Made by a program: the position numbers and the translations under genes. From Promethearchaeota archaeon Loki_b32 (lineage in GTDB: Archaea; Asgardarchaeota; Lokiarchaeia; Sigyniarchaeales; SOKP01), in NCBI GenBank assembly GCA_005223125.1, contig NJBH01000023.1, positions 1-61,161 on the forward strand: DNA of 61,161 nt. Reading direction: 5' to 3'. This document shows, one piece after another, positions 10,358-21,882 of this stretch. The notes below the pieces were generated by a model, which was not told the DNA's origin, made no database searches, and was given only the letters and a program-made list of their open reading frames with translations. The stretch's first letter is position 1, and each line of letters opens with the position of its first letter.

Positions 10358-10432
10358 TCTAATAGGATTACTTAATCGTCTTGAAGTATTTGGAGAGCTT
10401 CGTTTAAATACCGTGAAGTATAATGAGATTAA

Positions 10433-10612
10433 TGGTCCCCTCTGCCGGCATATCGTGAATTTTTTTTGGAAATTCAACTCGATCCGGCGACCTCTACCGG
10501 TTTGGTTTACTCCAATACTCTCGGTTTCGGCTGACGTAATTTCATTAGCAATTAGCTTTATTACGCGATTTTATCTACAGCCGAGTACTCTACCAGTCTG
10601 AGTTAAGAGGGG
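10433..10612 (-). tRNA. trnY: tRNA-Tyr(GUA) with three introns; exons 10612-10575, 10525-10520, 10493-10478, 10449-10433; CCA encoded
   Basis: The spliced 77-nt product forms a full cloverleaf: CCCCTCT/AGAGGGG acceptor with C1-G72 and A73 (archaeal/eukaryotic Tyr identity), ACTC/GAGT D-stem, CTCGG/CCGAG anticodon stem with CT-GTA-GA loop, GCCGG/CCGGC T-stem. Introns of 49 nt (37/38), 26 nt (43/44) and 28 nt (59/60); the last two have clear BHB motifs. Confidence 0.93.
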
Positions 10613-10899
10613 TTGTTAAGTTAAAATTAAATAATAATGTAATTAATTTATTTTTTATGTTTTTAGTTTTGGAGTGAATATTGCTATTAAGTTATATGCA
10701 TTTTTTTGCTCATAAAATCCTATCTTTTGTTTAAGAAAACTTATTAAATAAGAAATTTCACACTAGTATTAACTCAAAAATTGCACAACAAAAAAGCTCA
10801 AATTTCTTTTGTTGTGAAAAATTTTTAATAAATTAAACAATAATTTTATAAAATTAAACTAGTATAAAAATTACAATTTAAAGCAAAATTAAATGATAG

Positions 10900-11449
10900 G
10901 TGATAATCATTAGAGAAGAAACAGACTATACTGAGGCAATTGAATCGTACAAGAATGATCCGTATATAATTTTAGAACCATGGGGTAGGAGTATTGATCA
11001 TTTAAGACTTACCATCATCGGGAAGAAGGGAACCCCCTATGCAGAGGGTAAGTTCATTTTTGAAATCAAATTTCCAGAAAGATGAGAGACTATGCGTCCT
11101 CATTCTGGACAATTACCCATTTGCTCCTCCCTATGCTTACGCAGTTACTTTAATGTGGCATCCTAATATTGATTCCTCTATTCCCCCAGGAAAATTGAAC
11201 ATTTGTCTAGACCTAATTAATCCAGATCTTGTAGGTAAGGTGGATGCTTCAACTGGAGCAAGTGGATGGACACCGAGTAAAACTCTGATTAATATTATTG
11301 AAGCTTTAAAAGGAATGATGCATTACGAAGCTCCTTTCTTTAATCCGGGCGATCCATTGAATCATGAAGCAGGAGAACAATATTTCAGAGCCCTTAAGAA
11401 ATTTGAGGGAAAAGCTAACGCTTGGACTAAAAAATACGCGATGGATTGA
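10900..11449 (+). CDS. Ubiquitin-conjugating enzyme E2 (UBC) split by a 31-nt intron; join(10900..11079,11111..11449)
   Basis: Exon 1: I.GKKGTPYAEGKF.FEIKFPE. Exon 2: NYPFAPP...WHPNID...ICLDLI...W.P...L..I...PLN.EA. The joined product is a complete UBC fold with catalytic Cys. Confidence 0.92.
11080..11110 (+). other. Bulge-helix-bulge (archaeal tRNA-type) intron within E2 mRNA
   Basis: CCAG/CTGG central helix, AA^A and AC^A 3-nt bulges, intron stem GATGAG/CTCATT + GAC/GTC; excision restores frame and motif. Confidence 0.85.
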
Positions 11450-13771: not shown

Positions 13772-15355
13772 TCACATAAAAGTGATTATAACATTAAATC
13801 TTTTAATTTCAGATTCAGTTAGTGCTTTTCCTAAAGGAGTTATTGTTATAATATCGTTACTTTTTATTTTTAATGTTGTCAATTTTATATTAGGGTCTTT
13901 TAAAGAAGGCATATATGGATTCCAATAAATTTCCTTAGTCATTGGGTTTGTTATCATCCATAATTCAGGATCTAACTCATAACCGGTTATTTTCATTGCT
14001 TCAAAAATGTAACCCACATCTGCATCAAATGGGACCACAATTTGTACATTTTCTTCTCCTTCTATTTTTCCACAAGCGAGACAATCATCTCTTTTTATTA
14101 TATTCAAATGATCAAATTGACCGTATATCCCATTATAATTTACGTAAGGAGGATCCATTGGAGCCCCAATATTCCTACCATTAACTCTAAATAGGAGTTT
14201 TAATGCTTCTTGAGATTGGATACTAGCAATAACAGAGCTAACAGTTTGTATTGCAGCTATCTTATTTCCTAGAATATTTTCCATTTCTTCGAATTTATAG
14301 TCTGGTCCAAAAGTTTCTTTAATATTAAGTTTCCATTCCTCTAATTCTTCTTCTGATAAAGTTTCTCTCTTTTCTGATGGGACATTTTCATTGAAGACTC
14401 GTTCTCTTAATTTTTCAAATTCTCCTTGTGCTATTTCTTTCAGCTTCACAACTTCGTCATTTAAATTAAGATCTGGTTTATGTCCATATCTTTTTTCAAA
14501 TTCTACTTCAGCTTTTATGACACAATGATTCCTATTACGCGGTAAACCTTTTAAGGTGCATGCTGCTACGAGTTTATCATCAGCAGGTGGTATTGGTACT
14601 AAACATCTATAGCACGGAGTTAAATCTAATAATTCCGGAGCATATTTCCAATCAAAAACCATTTCTATTTCTCTTCTAAATTTCTGAATTAATGGTGTTA
14701 TTTTTTCTGCTTTTATAGTTTCAATTTCTTCTTCTAATTCTTCTATTCTTTTCTGAGCTGCGAAATATTCAGGATATTCCATTTCAGTTGTTTCCCATAG
14801 CCTTGTTTGTACCAAATTTTCAATTTCTCTTTCTTTATTCTTATATTGCAATCCAGAACCCTCAGGAATAATTATTTGTACATGGCCTTCAAAAGCATGC
14901 GTAGCTCCTTCGACCATAGGTTTTTTAATTCTTAAACAGATCTTATTTAAATCCAACCTTGCGTTAAAATTATCTAAAGCAGCTACTACTATATCTGCTT
15001 CTTCGTAAACAGCCATTGGTAATTTTTGGAGTTTTTCAAAATAATAATCAACTTTAAGATATGGATTCATTTCTAATAATCTTTCTGCTGCCACTTCAGC
15101 TTTGGCTCTCCCTTCATCTCCAGGTCTAAAGAGCATTTGGCGTGATAAATTAGACGTTTCAATCGTGTCAAGATCGACTAGAATCAATTTTTTTATCCCC
15201 ATTAGAGCGAAATCCTTAGCAATTTCACAACCTAAAGCACCAACGCCAATAATCATAATTACTCCATTATCAATGATATCTTGATCCCATCCATCTATTA
15301 ACTGCTGTCTTGCATACATACGCGACTTAACAATGTCATCTGGCTTTTCAGTCAT
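13772..15355 (-). CDS. Ubiquitin-activating enzyme E1 (Uba3/Uba2-like ThiF family with catalytic-Cys domain and C-terminal UFD-like domain)
   Basis: GVGALG, DLDTIETSNLSRQ.LF, ALDN..AR, TPCYRC, ACTLKGLPR...HCV, CLAC. Confidence 0.9.
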   Translation of the reverse strand: MTEKPDDIVKSRMYARQQLIDGWDQDIIDNGVIMIIGVGALGCEIAKDFALMGIKKLILVDLDTIETSNLSRQMLFRPGDEGRAKAEVAAERLLEMNPYLKVDYYFEKLQKLPMAVYEEADIVVAALDNFNARLDLNKICLRIKKPMVEGATHAFEGHVQIIIPEGSGLQYKNKEREIENLVQTRLWETTEMEYPEYFAAQKRIEELEEEIETIKAEKITPLIQKFRREIEMVFDWKYAPELLDLTPCYRCLVPIPPADDKLVAACTLKGLPRNRNHCVIKAEVEFEKRYGHKPDLNLNDEVVKLKEIAQGEFEKLRERVFNENVPSEKRETLSEEELEEWKLNIKETFGPDYKFEEMENILGNKIAAIQTVSSVIASIQSQEALKLLFRVNGRNIGAPMDPPYVNYNGIYGQFDHLNIIKRDDCLACGKIEGEENVQIVVPFDADVGYIFEAMKITGYELDPELWMITNPMTKEIYWNPYMPSLKDPNIKLTTLKIKSNDIITITPLGKALTESEIKRFNVIITFM

Positions 15356-15510: not shown

Positions 15511-18500
15511 CTAACTTTTTTTCTTTTTAGATGATTCTTTAATCATTCTTTTGAGATTATTGATTTCTTCTCTTTCTTTTGCTTTTTTTAATTTTTCTTC
15601 GAATTCTCTTTTTTCTTCTTCTTTAGTTGCTATTTCATCAATAAGTTCTTGCTTCATTTTTATTAAATTACCCATTTCTTTACGAAATTCTTTTGCTTCA
15701 TACTTAATTATCCTCTCTTGTTTTTTAGCAGCTAGTTTTTGCTTTTGTCTTCTTTTTTCAATTAAATCTATTACTTCATCAGCCAATCCACTAACTTCAC
15801 TAATAGATTCTTTTAATTTTGCCTCTTCAACCTTTTTACGCTTTTCTTCTGTAATTCTTTGTTTTTCTAATTGCTCTTGAATTAATTGAATTCTCTCTTC
15901 TTCATTTTTAACTTTTTCTTCTAGTAATTTTGTATTTTTAATTTCAGTTGCAATATATTTTATTTCTTCGTTCCAACCTATTTCTCGGAATTTAATAATT
16001 GCTGATTCAAAGTTTGTGTATGCTTCATCAAAATTATGATAAGCTGCTTGCTTTTTACCTTTCTCAATGAGTTTTAAACCTTCATCTTTTATTTGTTCTA
16101 CATGTTGTTTTTTATAGATTAAATCTTGATATTGCTTTTCTTGTTCCCGTTTCAACTTTTCTTGTTCTATCCTTCTTCTTTTCACTTCCTCCTGAAATAG
16201 AGCATACTCATTTTGCCGTTGTAATCGTGCTTGTTCCTCTAAACGTTTCTTTTCAAGAAAATTAGCTTGTTCTTGTTGCAAATCTTTAATTAGTGTGTTT
16301 AAATTATTTATTTCTGGTTCCCACCCAATATTTTCTGCTAAAATATGTCTTGCCTGGATATACAATGAAATTGCCTCATTGTAGTTAGGAATTCTGTGTT
16401 TCAAATACTTTCCAGCCTCTTCCAAAAGGGAATATGCAGATTCTCTCACACTCATTTGTTCTTGTATTATTTTTTCTCGTTCTTTCTGTGCTAATTGTTG
16501 AGCGTCCCTCTTATCTCTTTCTTGTCTCTTTCTTTCCTCAACTAAGGCTTTTAATGCTTTTCCTTCTTCTAAACTTTCTAATTCTTTTTTATATTTTAAT
16601 TGTTTGGCTTCATCTGTTTGCTTCTTTAAGATATTTATTTTAAATATCATATTATTTATAGAATCTGTTGGAAACTGTAGTTCATTTAGAAAAATACTTG
16701 CCCTCCTATAACAAACTAGTGCATTATCATAATTTTGTTCTTTTAAATAGCGCTCTCCCTCCTCCAGAATCTTAAATGCTTGTTCTTTTCTTTCTTCTAG
16801 TCTTTGTTTCAATTGTTCCTTTTTTAATAATTCTAATTCTTTTGCTTTCAATCGTTCTTTTTCAATGAGTAAATTTTTAGAGATTTTTTGTTGGAATTTC
16901 CAATCATCTCGTTCTCTCAGCAATCTTTGTTCTAATTCTTTCTGTTTTTGTATTTGATGTTCTCGTTTTTTCTCTTGAACTTTAAGAATTAATTCTCTAA
17001 TTGTTTCAGTGGGATAAGCAATTTCATTTAAGATTAATTCAGCAGCATGATAATAATCAAGAGATTTACCATATTGTGTCTTATTCATGAATGTTTCTGC
17101 CTCTTCAAGAAGATTAAAAGCTTCATCTCTTCGATTTTCCATATCCTCCTGGATTTCTCTTTGTTTCTGTAATCCAATTTGTCGTTCTTTTAACTTTAAC
17201 TCATTTATTTTTATACTTTCTGCTAGCTTTTGCTGAAATTTAATGTTCTCTCGTTCTTTTTGAAGTATATTCTCTAGATTTATTTGTTTAGTTGACCATT
17301 CTTCTTTAGTTTTCTCTTGAATTTTGTAGATCATTTCTCTAATTACATTAGTTGGAAATCCAATTTCATTCAAAAGCAACTCTGCTTGTCTATATTTCTC
17401 TATAGCTTGAACAAATTTCTTTTGATTAAATAGATTTTCAGCTAAATCCATAACTTTAAACGCTTCTTGTTTCCGGTTTTCCATTAATTGTTTTAGTTTT
17501 TCCCTTTTTTGAATTTCAATTTCTTTAACTTTTAATCTTTCTTGTTCTCTTCTCATGCTTTCCGAAATCTTATTATGGAATTTTTCTTCTTCTTTTTGTT
17601 GTTGTATTAATAATTCATTCTCTGTTTCTTTCTGTCTTTCAATATCTCTCTTTCTAATTTCAATAGTTATTATGGTATCCTGTAGTAATTTCAAATAATC
17701 ACTTGTCCATCCGATTTCAGTAAAAAAATTTATTGCATTTTGATAATTTTTCAATGCATTATCATATTTCTTTTGACTAAGTAAGTTATATCCATCACTT
17801 ATCAATTTGAATGCTTCTTCTTGTTGTTCTAAATTTTGTGAAGTAATCAATTCTCTTTTATGAATTAATTCTCTTTCCTCTAAAGCTTTTGTTTCTTCTT
17901 TATCTTTCAGAACCTTTATCTTTTCCATAAATTCATAATCAGATTTTTCTTTTTCTATAGCGTCTTGAATCATTTTTTGTTTTAATAAGTCTTTCTCTTT
18001 CTTTTTATTTTCAATATTTTGTATAGCGTTATTTATGATTGGAATTTCATCAGTCCATTGAATTTGTGCAAATATATTAGCTACATTGTGATAGAGTTCA
18101 ATTGTATCATCAAAATTTCCCTGTGAAAGGGGATTTTGAGCTTTTTCTAAAATATTGAATGCTTCTTCTTTTTTTCTTTCCCTATAAGCAATTTCTTCCT
18201 CTCTTTCTCTAAGACTTATTGCTCTTTTCTTTAATTCATCACGTTGTAGTTTTATCTCCTTGACAAGGTTCTTTTGAAAAATATTATCTTGTTTTTCCTG
18301 TTCTAGATATGCTTTTAATTCCTTTTGTTTTTGTAATTCTATTTCTCGCTTTTTATCTTCAATTGCAATAATAGCTTTCTCAATCAAATCAATTTGTTCC
18401 TCCCATTGGATTTCGATAAAAATCTCTTTAGCCGTATTATATAAATCAATTGTTACTTCAAATTTACCTTGTTCAATTTGTCTTTGAGCTTCTTCTAAAA

Positions 18501-21500
18501 TAGTGAATGCTTCTTGTTTTTTCTGTTCTCTAACACGCCTTAAGTCTTCTTGTTTTAATAGGTTCTCTTGCTTTTCTTTCATTTTTAGTTCTTCAAATTT
18601 AATTTTCTCCAAAATTTGTTGTTGAAATATATGTTCATTTTGTTGTCTTCTAAGATTTAGTTCTAATTCTTTCATCTTATTCATGTTTTCTTCTCGTTTT
18701 TTCTCCTGAATCTTTTGAATCATTTCTCGAATAGCTCCGGTTGGAAAATTAATTTCATTTAATAACAATTCTGCACGATAATAGGATTTCATGGACTCCT
18801 CATATTCACCTTTATCTAATAGCAATTCAGCACTATTCATAATCTTAAATGCTTCTACCTTTAGATTTTCCATTTTTTGAAGTAAATCTTCTTTCTGTTG
18901 GATTTTTATTTCTTTAACTTTTAATTTTGATTGTTCTTTTATCATATATTCACTGATTCTTTTTTGAAATATATCATCTTCTTGCTGTTGCTTTAATGAG
19001 ATCTCAAATTCTATTTGTTTTTCCTTCTCATTTTCTCTTTTCTTTTCTTCAATACTTTGAATAGTTTCACGTAATAACTTTAAATATCCTTCCCCCCACC
19101 CAATATTTTTTAAAATTTCTATACCTTTATCATAATTACTTATAGCTTCATCAAGATTTTCCATTTGAAGTAAATTATCTCCTTCCTCAATCAAACTAAA
19201 TGCTTTCTGTTGTTTAGCTAAATTCTGAGCAGAAAGCTGTTTTTGTTTTTCAACTTGTTGTTTCTCCATTAAAATTTCAGCTTTTTTCCGCTCTCTTTGA
19301 TACTTAATACGCTCAATAAAAACTCTATCGTAAGTTTCTCTCTTTATTGATTTCTGTAATAATTTCTGTTTATTTAATTCATTTTCTCTTTTTCTATTTT
19401 CAATATTATTAATTGCTTCTTGGATTATTGTTATTTCTTCATTCCACTGAATTTGAGCAAATATATTTATTACATTATAATAAATTTCAAGAGAATCATC
19501 AAATTTTCGATGGGAAAGAAACTCTTGAGCTTTATCTAATAAATCAAATGCTTCTTGTTTCTTTTTATCTCGAAACGCAAGTTCTTTTTCTCTTTCTCTT
19601 ACAGTAATTTCTTTTTCCTTCAATTTTTTCTTTTGTAGTTTCATTTCCGTTATGATAGTGTCTTGAAATACTTTTTCTTGCTTTTCCCGGTCTAACCCTG
19701 TTTGCATTTTAATTTGATTCTGTAAATCGGCTTCTCGTTTTTTATTTTCAATCTCTATGATGGCGTTTTGGATTAGATTAATCTCATTTTGCCATTCGAT
19801 ATCGGCAAAAAAGTTTATAGCGTATTTTAAAATTTCAATGGCTCCATCATAATTTCCTTGTTGTACATTTTCTTGAGCTTCTTCAAGTAATTTAAAACCT
19901 GCGATCCTTCTTTCTTCTCGATATTTTTTCTCTTTTTCTCGTTCCATTAATTCAATTTTCTTCTTCTTAAGGTTATCTCGTTCTTGTTGTAAGAACTTTG
20001 AAATTTGTTTTTGAAATTCTTCTTCTTTCTTTTGAGTTTCAATAGCATCTTTTAACTTCTTTTGTTTTAGGATATTTTGGTTTCTCAGTAGTTCTTCAAC
20101 TTCCCTTATTGAATCTTCAATTAACGGAATTTCTTCTGTCCATTGGATTTCTGCAAAAATATTTGCCGCATTTTGATAAGCTAAAATAGAATTATCATAT
20201 TCACTTTTTTTTAAGGAATCTATAGCAGAATCTAAGAATTCGAAAGCAATATGTTTACGATGTTCGAAAAATTTAACTTCTTCTACGCGATCTTTAATAA
20301 TAATTTCTTTTTTCTTTAAACGATTTCTTTCTTTATCTAATTGGATTACAACATACTTCTGGAATTCTAACTCTTCCCGTTCTCTTTCCTCTATTTTTTT
20401 TTGCTCCTCAAATTTTTTTGTAAGTTGGGAATGCTTTAACTTTTCCACGTTAGAGATTGTATTCTTAATCATGGAAATATAAGTCTCCCACCTTGGACCT
20501 AAATCAGTAAGGATTGATAATGCATTCTTATATTCATTTATAGCGTCATCGAACTTCTTTTCCTTTAATATATTATCTGCTTTATCTAACATTATAAAGA
20601 GATCTTCTTCTCTAATTACTTCATGTATTATTTTTTCTTCATATTCTTTTCTTTTTTTGTCGAGCTCTTTAGCTGTTTTGACAATTTGTTCCTCTCGCTT
20701 TTTATATATTGAATCCCTAAGTATCATTAAATCTCTTTGTCTTTTTTCCCTTAAATGTTCAGCTACTTTTTCTCTCTTTTGCTTATCTTTTATTTGATTT
20801 ACAAGGCTTACAATTGGTTGGACATATGTATCCCATTCTATTGATCTAAGAAGTTGAATTGCTTGATCGAACTTTACAATTGCTTCAGAATACTTCCTTT
20901 CTCTTTCAAGCCTATTACCAATATCAATTAAATTAAACGCTTTATATTGAATTTGTTCCTCGTGTTTTTTCTCCGACTCAAATTTAATTAACTTTTCTTT
21001 TTTTAACTCCGCTTCCCTTTCTAAAACAACTTTCTGTTCTTCTATATCACTTGTTAATGGGAGAGTTGATTGTTGAGCCTGAAGAGTCTCAAATTGGGTT
21101 TTATCTTTTTTAAGTTTTTTAATAATTGATTTAATGTTTTGGATCTGAGCACTCCAACCTATGGAACTCAATAATTTCATCGCTCTTTCATAATTCAATA
21201 TAGCGTTGTCAAATTTTTTATCTTTTTCAAATATCTTAGCAGCATCGATATGTTCGAAAGCTTGATTTTGTATATTTTCTTCATGTTTTTTCTTTGCTCT
21301 AAATTGTTCAATTACCTCTGCTTTTTCAACGCTGCTTTTTTGTCCGAACATTCCAACGACTTGAGGTGTATCATCTGGGAGAAATTGAGTCTTTTGTTGT
21401 TTTAATTCCGTTTCTTGTAGCTGAGGTTGTTGAATAATCTTTTTTTGTTCTAAATCCCTAGATAACATGTTTATTTTTGTTTTTATGTTTTCCAATTGAA

Positions 21501-21882
21501 TTTCAGACCAACCCGCTTGAACTAATAATTGAATAGCAGCTAAATATTGTTGAATAGCATCTTCAATAAAACCATCAAATTCCAACTTTTTCGCTCCTTC
21601 TAATAGAGTAAAAGATTGATCTTGTAATTGTTCAATTTGAGCTTTAGTTAGAGTTTGTTGATATAATGTCTCCTTCTGAAGAAAATCTTTCAATTCACCA
21701 ATTCTATCATAAATTTCTTGAATTCTGTGCATCAAATATCCACTTTGTTTGAGAAAATCAGCAGCTTTTTGATAGTGTGAAATTGCGTTTTCTATATCGT
21801 TTTCAGCTTCAAGTTTTTGGGCAATATCTAAATACTTTAAAGCTTCTTGTGCTAATACTTCTGGATTCTGCAATTTAAACAA
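15511..21882 (-). CDS. Giant (about 2120 aa) TPR/MIT-like helical-repeat and coiled-coil protein
   Basis: About 18 units of AF.L...A....(helix)..AI..Y..A...F..I(G/Q)W / I.FP followed by E/K/Q/R-rich helices. Confidence 0.75.
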   Translation of the reverse strand: MFKLQNPEVLAQEALKYLDIAQKLEAENDIENAISHYQKAADFLKQSGYLMHRIQEIYDRIGELKDFLQKETLYQQTLTKAQIEQLQDQSFTLLEGAKKLEFDGFIEDAIQQYLAAIQLLVQAGWSEIQLENIKTKINMLSRDLEQKKIIQQPQLQETELKQQKTQFLPDDTPQVVGMFGQKSSVEKAEVIEQFRAKKKHEENIQNQAFEHIDAAKIFEKDKKFDNAILNYERAMKLLSSIGWSAQIQNIKSIIKKLKKDKTQFETLQAQQSTLPLTSDIEEQKVVLEREAELKKEKLIKFESEKKHEEQIQYKAFNLIDIGNRLERERKYSEAIVKFDQAIQLLRSIEWDTYVQPIVSLVNQIKDKQKREKVAEHLREKRQRDLMILRDSIYKKREEQIVKTAKELDKKRKEYEEKIIHEVIREEDLFIMLDKADNILKEKKFDDAINEYKNALSILTDLGPRWETYISMIKNTISNVEKLKHSQLTKKFEEQKKIEEREREELEFQKYVVIQLDKERNRLKKKEIIIKDRVEEVKFFEHRKHIAFEFLDSAIDSLKKSEYDNSILAYQNAANIFAEIQWTEEIPLIEDSIREVEELLRNQNILKQKKLKDAIETQKKEEEFQKQISKFLQQERDNLKKKKIELMEREKEKKYREERRIAGFKLLEEAQENVQQGNYDGAIEILKYAINFFADIEWQNEINLIQNAIIEIENKKREADLQNQIKMQTGLDREKQEKVFQDTIITEMKLQKKKLKEKEITVREREKELAFRDKKKQEAFDLLDKAQEFLSHRKFDDSLEIYYNVINIFAQIQWNEEITIIQEAINNIENRKRENELNKQKLLQKSIKRETYDRVFIERIKYQRERKKAEILMEKQQVEKQKQLSAQNLAKQQKAFSLIEEGDNLLQMENLDEAISNYDKGIEILKNIGWGEGYLKLLRETIQSIEEKKRENEKEKQIEFEISLKQQQEDDIFQKRISEYMIKEQSKLKVKEIKIQQKEDLLQKMENLKVEAFKIMNSAELLLDKGEYEESMKSYYRAELLLNEINFPTGAIREMIQKIQEKKREENMNKMKELELNLRRQQNEHIFQQQILEKIKFEELKMKEKQENLLKQEDLRRVREQKKQEAFTILEEAQRQIEQGKFEVTIDLYNTAKEIFIEIQWEEQIDLIEKAIIAIEDKKREIELQKQKELKAYLEQEKQDNIFQKNLVKEIKLQRDELKKRAISLREREEEIAYRERKKEEAFNILEKAQNPLSQGNFDDTIELYHNVANIFAQIQWTDEIPIINNAIQNIENKKKEKDLLKQKMIQDAIEKEKSDYEFMEKIKVLKDKEETKALEERELIHKRELITSQNLEQQEEAFKLISDGYNLLSQKKYDNALKNYQNAINFFTEIGWTSDYLKLLQDTIITIEIRKRDIERQKETENELLIQQQKEEEKFHNKISESMRREQERLKVKEIEIQKREKLKQLMENRKQEAFKVMDLAENLFNQKKFVQAIEKYRQAELLLNEIGFPTNVIREMIYKIQEKTKEEWSTKQINLENILQKERENIKFQQKLAESIKINELKLKERQIGLQKQREIQEDMENRRDEAFNLLEEAETFMNKTQYGKSLDYYHAAELILNEIAYPTETIRELILKVQEKKREHQIQKQKELEQRLLRERDDWKFQQKISKNLLIEKERLKAKELELLKKEQLKQRLEERKEQAFKILEEGERYLKEQNYDNALVCYRRASIFLNELQFPTDSINNMIFKINILKKQTDEAKQLKYKKELESLEEGKALKALVEERKRQERDKRDAQQLAQKEREKIIQEQMSVRESAYSLLEEAGKYLKHRIPNYNEAISLYIQARHILAENIGWEPEINNLNTLIKDLQQEQANFLEKKRLEEQARLQRQNEYALFQEEVKRRRIEQEKLKREQEKQYQDLIYKKQHVEQIKDEGLKLIEKGKKQAAYHNFDEAYTNFESAIIKFREIGWNEEIKYIATEIKNTKLLEEKVKNEEERIQLIQEQLEKQRITEEKRKKVEEAKLKESISEVSGLADEVIDLIEKRRQKQKLAAKKQERIIKYEAKEFRKEMGNLIKMKQELIDEIATKEEEKREFEEKLKKAKEREEINNLKRMIKESSKKKKS

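What the first reader, a model, noticed from the sequence alone, without database searches (positions are those of the whole stretch)
11074..11112. tRNA-type bulge-helix-bulge intron inside the mRNA of an Asgard ubiquitin-conjugating (E2) gene
Seen: the E2 gene appears as two ORFs in different frames, breaking inside the conserved FPxxYPxxPP motif. The break reads ttt CCAG aa^a GATGAG a GAC tatgc GTC CTCATT CTGG ac^a attac. That is a 4-bp helix (CCAG 11074-77 / CTGG 11105-08), a 3-nt bulge 3' of it on each strand (AAA, ACA), and an intron hairpin. Established: archaeal splicing endonuclease (EndA) cuts after the second nucleotide of each BHB bulge and RtcB ligates; cbf5 of Crenarchaeota is the classic archaeal mRNA example. 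Applying this rule with no adjustment removes 11080-11110 (31 nt) and gives CCA GAA AAT TAC CCA = FPENYPFAPP, restoring frame and exact motif spacing. Unspliced RNA stops at TGA 11083 before the catalytic Cys. The immediate exon helix is weak (1 bp), but GGGTAA 11046-51 can pair with TTACCC 11113-18. Inference: a eukaryotic-signature ubiquitin gene in an Asgard archaeon depends on non-spliceosomal mRNA splicing, which could act as an on/off switch, loosely like HAC1/XBP1. Annotation pipelines would call it a pseudogene.
Basis: partly seen in the sequence, partly recalled or inferred. Interest (0 to 1): 0.97.

Follow-up and report, generated by a model that had tools for sequence, protein, structure and literature searches.

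The report
tRNA-type mini-intron in Asgard E2 gene
A ubiquitin-conjugating (E2) gene of a Loki-type Asgard archaeon is broken by a 31-base insert shaped like a tRNA intron; relatives carry similar inserts at seven places in the same gene, so the messenger RNA is very probably cut and rejoined by the tRNA-splicing enzymes, which the papers I could search report for only one archaeal coding sequence (cbf5).

Summary
Confirmed. Bases 11080-11110 are a genomic 31-nt insert, present in independent assemblies, that frameshifts an otherwise intact, purifying-selected E2 gene before its HPN/Cys active site. Removing it gives FPENYPFAPP, as in intronless orthologs. It forms a 4-bp helix with two 3-nt bulges and an inner stem (5 of 200,000 shuffles do as well). 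Across the class, 16 of about 134 genomes with this ortholog carry 29-39-nt inserts, at 7 sites. Of 23 distinct inserts, 21 form a full central helix at the protein-defined boundary (about 2.4 expected). Two other lineages have different inserts at exactly this site. The genome encodes an (alpha-beta)2 EndA with the broad-specificity loop, and RtcB. One metatranscriptome contig shows the exact junction, but an intronless relative cannot be excluded. Best reading (0.9): an EndA/RtcB-spliced mRNA intron, one of many sporadically gained micro-introns in Lokiarchaeia. The proposed HAC1/XBP1-like switch is not supported: the sister species lacks the intron and positions are scattered. Splicing is inferred, not shown. 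This scan has noted the same phenomenon many times on other DNA.

The parts
10899..10904 (+). GGTGAT, Shine-Dalgarno-like motif; the GTG at 10900 called as start by the ORF finder lies within it
   Evidence: (GGTG lies 10-11 nt before the homologous start codon in nearly all ATC/ATT-starting orthologs)
10909..11079 (+). Exon 1 of the E2 gene, from the probable ATT start to ...F-P-E
   Evidence: (UQ_con positions 15-55)
11046..11051 (+). GGGTAA, 5' arm of a distal exon-exon helix pairing with TTACCC 11113-18; not a canonical adjacent outer helix and not conserved in other same-site carriers
   Evidence: pair probability 0.63-0.94; 6/6 pairing in only 4 of 139 orthologs
11074..11077 (+). 5' strand of the BHB central helix (CCAG, exon)
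11078..11080 (+). Bulge 1 (AA^A); predicted 5' cut between 11079 and 11080
   Evidence: RNA contig joint at 11079
11080..11110 (+). 31-nt intron: frameshifting, TGA at 11083-85 in the exon-1 frame, hairpin 11081-11104
11105..11108 (+). 3' strand of the BHB central helix (CTGG, intron)
   Evidence: also CTGG in the different introns of L065 and L114
11109..11111 (+). Bulge 2 (AC^A); predicted 3' cut between 11110 and 11111
   Evidence: RNA contig joint at 11111
11111..11449 (+). Exon 2 of the E2 gene: NYPFAPP, HPN (11159-67), catalytic Cys (TGT 11204-06), stop
   Evidence: (LNICLDL in 139 of 139)

Best explanation
The 31 nt are an archaeal BHB intron in a protein-coding mRNA. The pre-mRNA folds so that exon CCAG pairs with intron CTGG, flanked by two A-led 3-nt bulges and closed by the intron hairpin (a relaxed HBh' motif). 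The cell's (alpha-beta)2 splicing endonuclease, which has the crenarchaeal-type L1/CSL loop, cuts after the second base of each bulge, and RtcB joins 11079 to 11111. This yields an E2 of about 169 aa with intact HPN and Cys; unspliced RNA stops at 11083. SHOWN: the insert, its boundaries, its geometry, recurrence of the same geometry in orthologs, purifying selection on both exons, and presence of EndA and RtcB genes. INFERRED: cleavage and ligation in vivo. The intron is one member of a population of roughly 30-nt micro-introns that Lokiarchaeia gain repeatedly at sites whose exon sequence can supply half of a BHB. It is most likely spliced constitutively and tolerated rather than used as a dedicated switch.
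For: Insert boundaries set by alignment coincide with the EndA cut rule. Inserts were found without using the motif and the register was chosen by protein similarity (ties broken by helix score): 20 of 22 distinct inserts have a 4/4 central helix against 2.43 expected (maximum 8 in 5,000 shuffles; antisense control 5); G018 adds a 23rd, also 4/4. In the 9 inserts with a single best register, 7 are 4/4. The second bulge is AA^A in 17 of 22. At the codon-133 site the central helix varies on both sides: ACGT/GCGT, ATGT/GCAT, ACAT/GTGT, ATAT/GTGT. Same-site inserts in L065 (32 nt) and L114 (31 nt, unrelated sequence) keep CTGG and a complementary stem. dN/dS versus the sister species is 0.09 (exon 1) and 0.024 (exon 2); versus L111 4 synonymous and 0 nonsynonymous changes. 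Some genes carry 2-3 inserts (L272, L279, L282). Two EndA genes: the catalytic one best matches PDB 3p1z/3ajv (E 2e-35; crenarchaeal enzyme by my own knowledge) and has the G-x-P-L-G-I-S-K-P-R loop; RtcB is present. Asgard EndA is (alpha-beta)2 with the L1 loop (PMC5829648). Several tRNA calls in the genome are 102-106 nt long, consistent with roughly 30-nt non-canonical introns. Metatranscriptome contig X18 joins 11079 to 11111 exactly.
Against: No raw RNA reads. The one spliced RNA contig has depth 3.8 and 8 differences in 169 nt, and DNA runs also contain the joined form from intronless relatives, so it is not proof. The minimum-energy fold slips the bulge register and the adjacent exon helix is 1 bp. 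Related introns are not independent observations; counted by site, 7 of 7 sites have a full-helix insert. A genome-wide ab initio scan showed no enrichment over control geometries.
Confidence: 0.9

Rival explanations
1. Programmed +1 ribosomal frameshift just before TGA 11083, stimulated by the hairpin, giving an E2 with about 10 extra residues and no splicing.
For: In the window the +1 frame is open through the insert; stop-adjacent +1 shifts are known from RF2 and antizyme (own knowledge).
Against: The same-site insert in L114 has stops in both frames; 14 of 22 inserts have stops in both the upstream and the downstream frame; lengths give phases 0, +1 and +2, so no single recoding rule fits. 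All 139 aligned sequences, once inserts are removed, keep the exact FPxNYPFxPP spacing.
Confidence: 0.03
2. A recent inactivating insertion (pseudogene) or a small mobile hairpin that is never removed.
For: The sister species lacks it; the genome has two other UQ_con genes; a young insertion would not yet show decay.
Against: BHB geometry at protein-defined boundaries recurs in 21 of 23 inserts. Carriers such as L065 and L114 show dN/dS of 0.016-0.026 against their nearest intronless neighbours. L111 shares the identical insert with 4 synonymous and 0 nonsynonymous changes. Genes with three inserts remain otherwise intact.
Confidence: 0.05
3. The intron is spliced and splicing is a regulated switch for the ubiquitin pathway, as with HAC1/XBP1.
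For: Unspliced RNA gives a truncated, Cys-less product; the neighbouring E1 gene also has 30-nt inserts in two relatives (L055, L058); the fold has a competing slipped register.
Against: About 88% of genomes with the ortholog lack an intron in it, including the sister species; 7 scattered sites; carriers are not one clade (AU p = 4e-6); the window's own E1 is one unbroken ORF; similar inserts occur in cdhD and two other unrelated genes.
Confidence: 0.1
4. Assembly artefact.
For: The genome is a metagenome-assembled one.
Against: Present in contigs of independent runs X1 and X14 and in L111.
Confidence: 0.01

Closest known systems
cbf5 pre-mRNA intron of Desulfurococcales/Sulfolobales (Watanabe 2002; Yokobori 2009, PMC2738675)
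   Same: Short intron inside an archaeal coding sequence, at a conserved motif, bounded by a relaxed BHB; host has hetero-oligomeric EndA; misread by annotation as a frameshift or pseudogene.
   Different: cbf5 is one ancestral intron at one site, inherited and lost, and confirmed by cDNA and in vitro. Here the phylum is Asgard, the gene is an E2, there are 7 sites with repeated appearance in unrelated branches, lengths are mostly 29-32 nt, and there is no experimental confirmation.
Non-canonical tRNA introns of Asgard archaea (bioRxiv 10.64898/2026.10.13.758758) and Thermoproteales
   Same: Repeated gains, many on terminal branches, at sites able to form a BHB; (alpha-beta)2 EndA; route of arrival unknown.
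   Different: That study covers tRNA genes only (the word mRNA does not occur in it). Here the host is an mRNA, with no tRNA scaffold to supply the exon helix.
BHB intron in the 5' UTR of Haloferax HVO_1309 (PMC7714728)
   Same: EndA-processed BHB in an mRNA.
   Different: Non-coding position, 46 nt, other enzyme type; does not restore a reading frame.
HAC1/XBP1 unconventional splicing (Ire1 with Trl1 or RtcB; own knowledge)
   Same: Non-spliceosomal removal of an intron by a protein endonuclease and a tRNA ligase, restoring a functional product.
   Different: Uses Ire1 and two stem-loops, is stress-regulated and conserved; nothing here shows regulation or conservation of position.

Membership tests
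Archaeal BHB (EndA-type) intron | 4-bp central helix between exon and intron | tested here: met
   CCAG/CTGG, 4 Watson-Crick pairs, p = 0.97
Archaeal BHB (EndA-type) intron | 3-nt bulge 3' of the helix on each strand, with the cut after the second base giving the correct product | tested here: met
   The rule reproduces the alignment-defined boundaries and the ortholog peptide; the free RNA prefers a slipped register by about 1.7 kcal/mol
Archaeal BHB (EndA-type) intron | Intron-side outer helix (h') | tested here: met
   6 bp plus 3 bp, -8.3 kcal/mol
Archaeal BHB (EndA-type) intron | Exon-side outer helix (h), required for strict hBHBh' but not for relaxed HBh' | tested here: not met
   1 adjacent pair only; a distal 6-bp helix lies beyond a side hairpin. 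Hence the relaxed subtype, not the strict one
Archaeal BHB (EndA-type) intron | Host encodes an EndA able to cut relaxed motifs, and RtcB | tested here: met
   Catalytic and structural subunit genes, L1/CSL-like loop with Lys, RtcB; activity not assayed
Archaeal BHB (EndA-type) intron | Structure maintained across homologs despite sequence change | tested here: met
   21 of 23 inserts with 4/4 helix; two-sided changes at the codon-133 site
Archaeal BHB (EndA-type) intron | Precise excision from the RNA in vivo | tested here: inconclusive
   One RNA contig with the exact junction, 95% identical, depth 3.8; intronless relatives give the same junction in DNA
Archaeal BHB (EndA-type) intron | Cleavage by EndA in vitro; circular excised intron | not testable with these tools
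   Needs biochemistry or circRNA-seq
Ubiquitin-conjugating enzyme E2 (PF00179) | UBC fold with HPN motif and catalytic Cys | tested here: met
   The halves cover the profile; the intact ortholog scores 88 bits (cut-off 27); Cys invariant
Regulated unconventional mRNA splicing (HAC1/XBP1-like) | Intron position conserved across the clade | tested here: not met
   3 separate lineages at this site, 7 sites overall, about 88% of genomes intronless
Regulated unconventional mRNA splicing (HAC1/XBP1-like) | Condition-dependent splicing | not testable with these tools
   No raw RNA reads available

The most novel reading that the evidence does not exclude
Lokiarchaeia carry a mobile population of roughly 30-nt, ORF-less BHB micro-introns that keep inserting into coding sequences at recurrent sites (here three unrelated lineages at one E2 codon boundary, seven sites in one 510-nt gene). 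EndA/RtcB mRNA splicing would then be a routine, genome-wide step of gene expression in a major Asgard lineage, with ongoing intron gain.
Probability: 0.7. Interest if true: 0.9.

Novelty: new variant of a known kind. Interest (0 to 1): 0.77.

Why it matters
In the papers I could search, splicing inside an archaeal coding sequence is documented for cbf5 alone. Recurrent BHB introns in Asgard mRNAs would show that relatives of the eukaryotic host lineage routinely splice mRNA without a spliceosome, and that introns are being gained on short time scales. This offers a tractable system for the open question of how introns arrive. It also means that Asgard genes called split or pseudogenes, including eukaryotic-signature genes such as this E2, may be intact, which affects gene inventories. 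The E2 gene is a compact test case: one 510-nt gene, seven sites, and intron-bearing and intronless sister species.

Tried and rejected
(1) Ab initio genome-wide BHB scans with ORF restoration and with a dicodon coding model (one search timed out): no excess of the 3-nt-bulge geometry over 1-, 2-, 4- and 5-nt controls (224 vs 207-238 regions), so they cannot count introns in this AT-rich genome. (2) RNA evidence: the only read-laying run used contigs, not reads; the junction cannot be assigned to this species with certainty. (3) A donor for the intron elsewhere in the genome: no similar sequence found. (4) A single origin with vertical descent of the codon-61 intron with few losses: carriers are not one clade and their common ancestor subtends 84 of 153 sequences; many losses cannot be excluded formally. 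(5) The distal GGGTAA/TTACCC helix as a conserved requirement: L065 pairs only 4 of 6 there. (6) The promoter/terminator scan was at chance level. (7) Literature searches for Asgard mRNA introns found none; the library lacks most subscription papers. (8) L110 is genome G081, not G018 as labelled; its register there was mis-set and is corrected.

Full report
OBSERVATION. The sequence is as described. An upstream ORF ends at TGA 11083-85 and a second ORF in the +1 frame runs to 11449. They match Pfam UQ_con positions 15-55 and 51-139. Deleting 11080-11110 fuses them into one E2 reading ...IKFPENYPFAPP...HPN...ICLD.... Only two deletion registers give this product, and one of them is a BHB cut register: CCAG, AA^A, hairpin, CTGG, AC^A. 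Shuffling the 31 letters gives an equal geometry in 5 of 200,000 trials, and random genomic 31-mers in 13 of 200,000. The region folds with z = -3.7. The four central pairs have probability 0.97, but the minimum-energy fold extends them to six pairs and slips the bulge; the canonical register costs about 1.7 kcal/mol more, and the adjacent exon helix is one pair. The motif is therefore of the relaxed HBh' type. The insert is genomic: contigs from a cold-seep run and a vent run span it with 2 differences each, and L111 (99.2% identical) has the same 31 nt.

ORGANISM AND MACHINERY. Orthologs come from records titled mostly Promethearchaeota. The genome has two EndA genes. The C18 protein carries the Tyr, His and Lys catalytic motifs and best matches PDB 3p1z/3ajv (E 2e-35; a crenarchaeal enzyme by my own knowledge), including the loop G-S-P-L-G-I-S-K-P-R; the C2 protein lacks the His and looks like the structural subunit. 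This agrees with the report that Asgard EndA is (alpha-beta)2 with the L1/CSL loop that allows relaxed motifs to be cut (PMC5829648). RtcB is present. Several tRNA calls are 102-106 nt long, consistent with introns of about 30 nt at non-standard positions.

ORTHOLOGS. Most orthologs are unbroken, including the nearest species (L031, 92.9% nt). Among 161 genomes of the class, about 134 have the ortholog and 16 carry one or more short inserts. I located inserts by alignment, chose the register by protein similarity (ties broken by helix score) and only then scored structure. There are 23 distinct inserts of 29-39 nt (mostly 30-32) at seven sites: codons 60, 61, 68, 78, 130, 133 and 149, counted from GTG 10900. 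Of the 22 scored by script, 20 form all four central pairs, against 2.43 expected from shuffles that may use any register within 3 nt (maximum 8 in 5,000) and 5 on the antisense strand; the G018 insert is a further 4/4 case. Of the nine with one unambiguous register, seven are 4/4. The second bulge is AA^A in 17 of 22, and the first bulge begins with A in 21 of 22. At codon 133 the central helix changes on both sides while staying paired (ACGT/GCGT, ATGT/GCAT, ACAT/GTGT, ATAT/GTGT). Kin share introns, so these are not 23 independent events, but every one of the seven sites has a full-helix insert. At the window's own site two other lineages have inserts: L065 (32 nt, with a partly similar core; alignment score reached by 78 of 20,000 shuffles, a null that ignores the shared hairpin constraint) and L114 (31 nt, unrelated core). 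Both end in CTGG and have their own complementary stem.

SELECTION AND RIVALS. Against the sister species dN/dS is 0.09 in exon 1 and 0.024 in exon 2; against L111 there are 4 synonymous and no nonsynonymous changes; L065 and L114 give 0.016-0.026 against their neighbours. The catalytic Cys motif is invariant. This argues against a pseudogene, although a very young insertion would not yet show decay. A +1 frameshift is formally possible in the window, because the downstream frame is open through the insert. It fails as a general account: 14 of 22 inserts, including same-site L114, have stops in both frames, and lengths span all three phases.

RNA EVIDENCE. One metatranscriptome contig (X18, depth 3.8) joins 11079 to 11111 exactly. 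It has 8 differences in 169 nt, against 16 for the nearest known intronless species and 2 for L111 over the same span. It keeps G at 11046 and, by my reading of the tool's counts, T at 11049, a combination found in only 5 of 139 sequences, including the window and L111 but not L031. DNA runs also contain the joined form, at least one contig of it from a distant relative (85% identical). So this is suggestive only: an unsampled intronless relative could be the source.

HISTORY. The window clusters with intronless L031 (support 1.0), L065 nests among intronless sequences, and L114 pairs with intronless L112. A tree with the same-site carriers held together is rejected (AU p = 4e-6; 40 rows, quick search). 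Repeated gain or lateral transfer at a favourable site is the simpler reading, though many losses are not excluded. CCAG occurs at this position in 49 of 139 sequences, so many alleles could accept such an intron. No donor sequence was found in the genome. This mirrors the repeated, terminal, BHB-constrained gains reported for Asgard tRNA introns, whose route of arrival is also unknown (bioRxiv 10.64898/2026.10.13.758758).

GENOME CONTEXT. Aligning sampled stretches of two relatives to 542 kb of this genome recovered, besides the E2 insert, a 33-nt insert at C45:47179 (4/4 helix), a 29-nt insert at C24:174989 (4/4 at a register 2 nt from the alignment) and a 31-nt insert at C4:82073 (3/4); a 30-nt insert at C45:44217 shows no clear motif. 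Earlier scan notes describe matching inserts in cdhD, a zinc-ribbon gene and an integrase-like gene of this genome; I confirmed the inserts, not the gene names. Four in about 13% of the genome suggests some tens in all, a rough extrapolation. Ab initio scans could not separate signal from background. The window's E1-like gene (13772-15355, minus strand) is unbroken, while two relatives have 30-nt inserts in it.

MECHANISM. Shown: the insert, its boundaries, geometry, recurrence, selection, and the enzyme genes. Inferred: EndA cuts after 11079 and 11110, RtcB ligates, and an E2 of about 169 aa is made; unspliced RNA gives a short product without the active site. I put this at 0.9.

COMPARISON AND NOVELTY. 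It works like the cbf5 intron of Crenarchaeota, the only coding-sequence case in the papers found (PMC2738675; PMC7714728). It meets the structural tests of a relaxed BHB intron, fails the strict exon-helix criterion, and has an inconclusive in vivo test. It differs from cbf5 in phylum, in host gene, and above all in being one of many recurrently gained introns rather than one ancestral intron. No paper on Asgard mRNA introns was found, with the caveat that the library is incomplete. This scan has recorded the same phenomenon many times on other DNA; I used those notes as leads, not as evidence. Verdict: new variant of a known kind; interest 0.77.

Noticed in passing
window 10899-10911: The E2 probably starts at ATT 10909. 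The homologous codon is ATC (44), ATG (43), TTG (12), ATT (9) or GTG (7) in orthologs, and the ATC/ATT starts nearly always have GGTG 10-11 nt upstream whereas ATG starts almost never do: apparent AUC/AUU initiation compensated by a strong Shine-Dalgarno motif.
   Followed up: partly
L272 (G128:C91), L279 (G123), L282 (G159): E2 orthologs with two or three BHB-type inserts in one 510-nt gene; in G123 a 39-nt insert lies one codon before the window's site. One insert in L272 (codon 130) is in frame, has no stop and a poor helix.
   Followed up: partly
L055:6110 and L058:6116 (minus strand): 30-nt, stop-containing inserts with a 3/4 central helix in the GxGALG motif of the neighbouring E1-like (ThiF) gene in two relatives; the window's own E1 (13772-15355) is unbroken.
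   Followed up: no
G000 C45:47179, C24:174989, C4:82073, C45:44217: Further 29-33-nt coding-region inserts relative to G006; three have BHB-like geometry, the last does not.
   Followed up: partly
L209 (G006:C1 1,500,001-1,520,000; opposite G000 C21:20646): 30-nt insert in the relative with a 3/4 helix, 7-bp stem and AA^A second bulge.
   Followed up: no
window about 10400-10600 and the matching stretch in L036, L056, L061, L082, L089, L093, L150: A GC-rich, tRNA-like stretch upstream of the E2 gene carries variable 26-30-nt inserts in relatives; probably intron-containing tRNA genes that ARAGORN did not call. Not verified.
   Followed up: no
G000 whole genome: ARAGORN finds only 23 tRNA genes, several mis-assigned and 102-106 nt long, which points to many non-canonical tRNA introns.
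   Followed up: no
window 15511-21882 (minus strand): 2123-aa helical repeat protein directly upstream of, and co-oriented with, the E1-like gene.
   Followed up: no
L269 (G142:C135): This E2 ortholog has an in-frame TAA inside the match without an insert; not explained.
   Followed up: no
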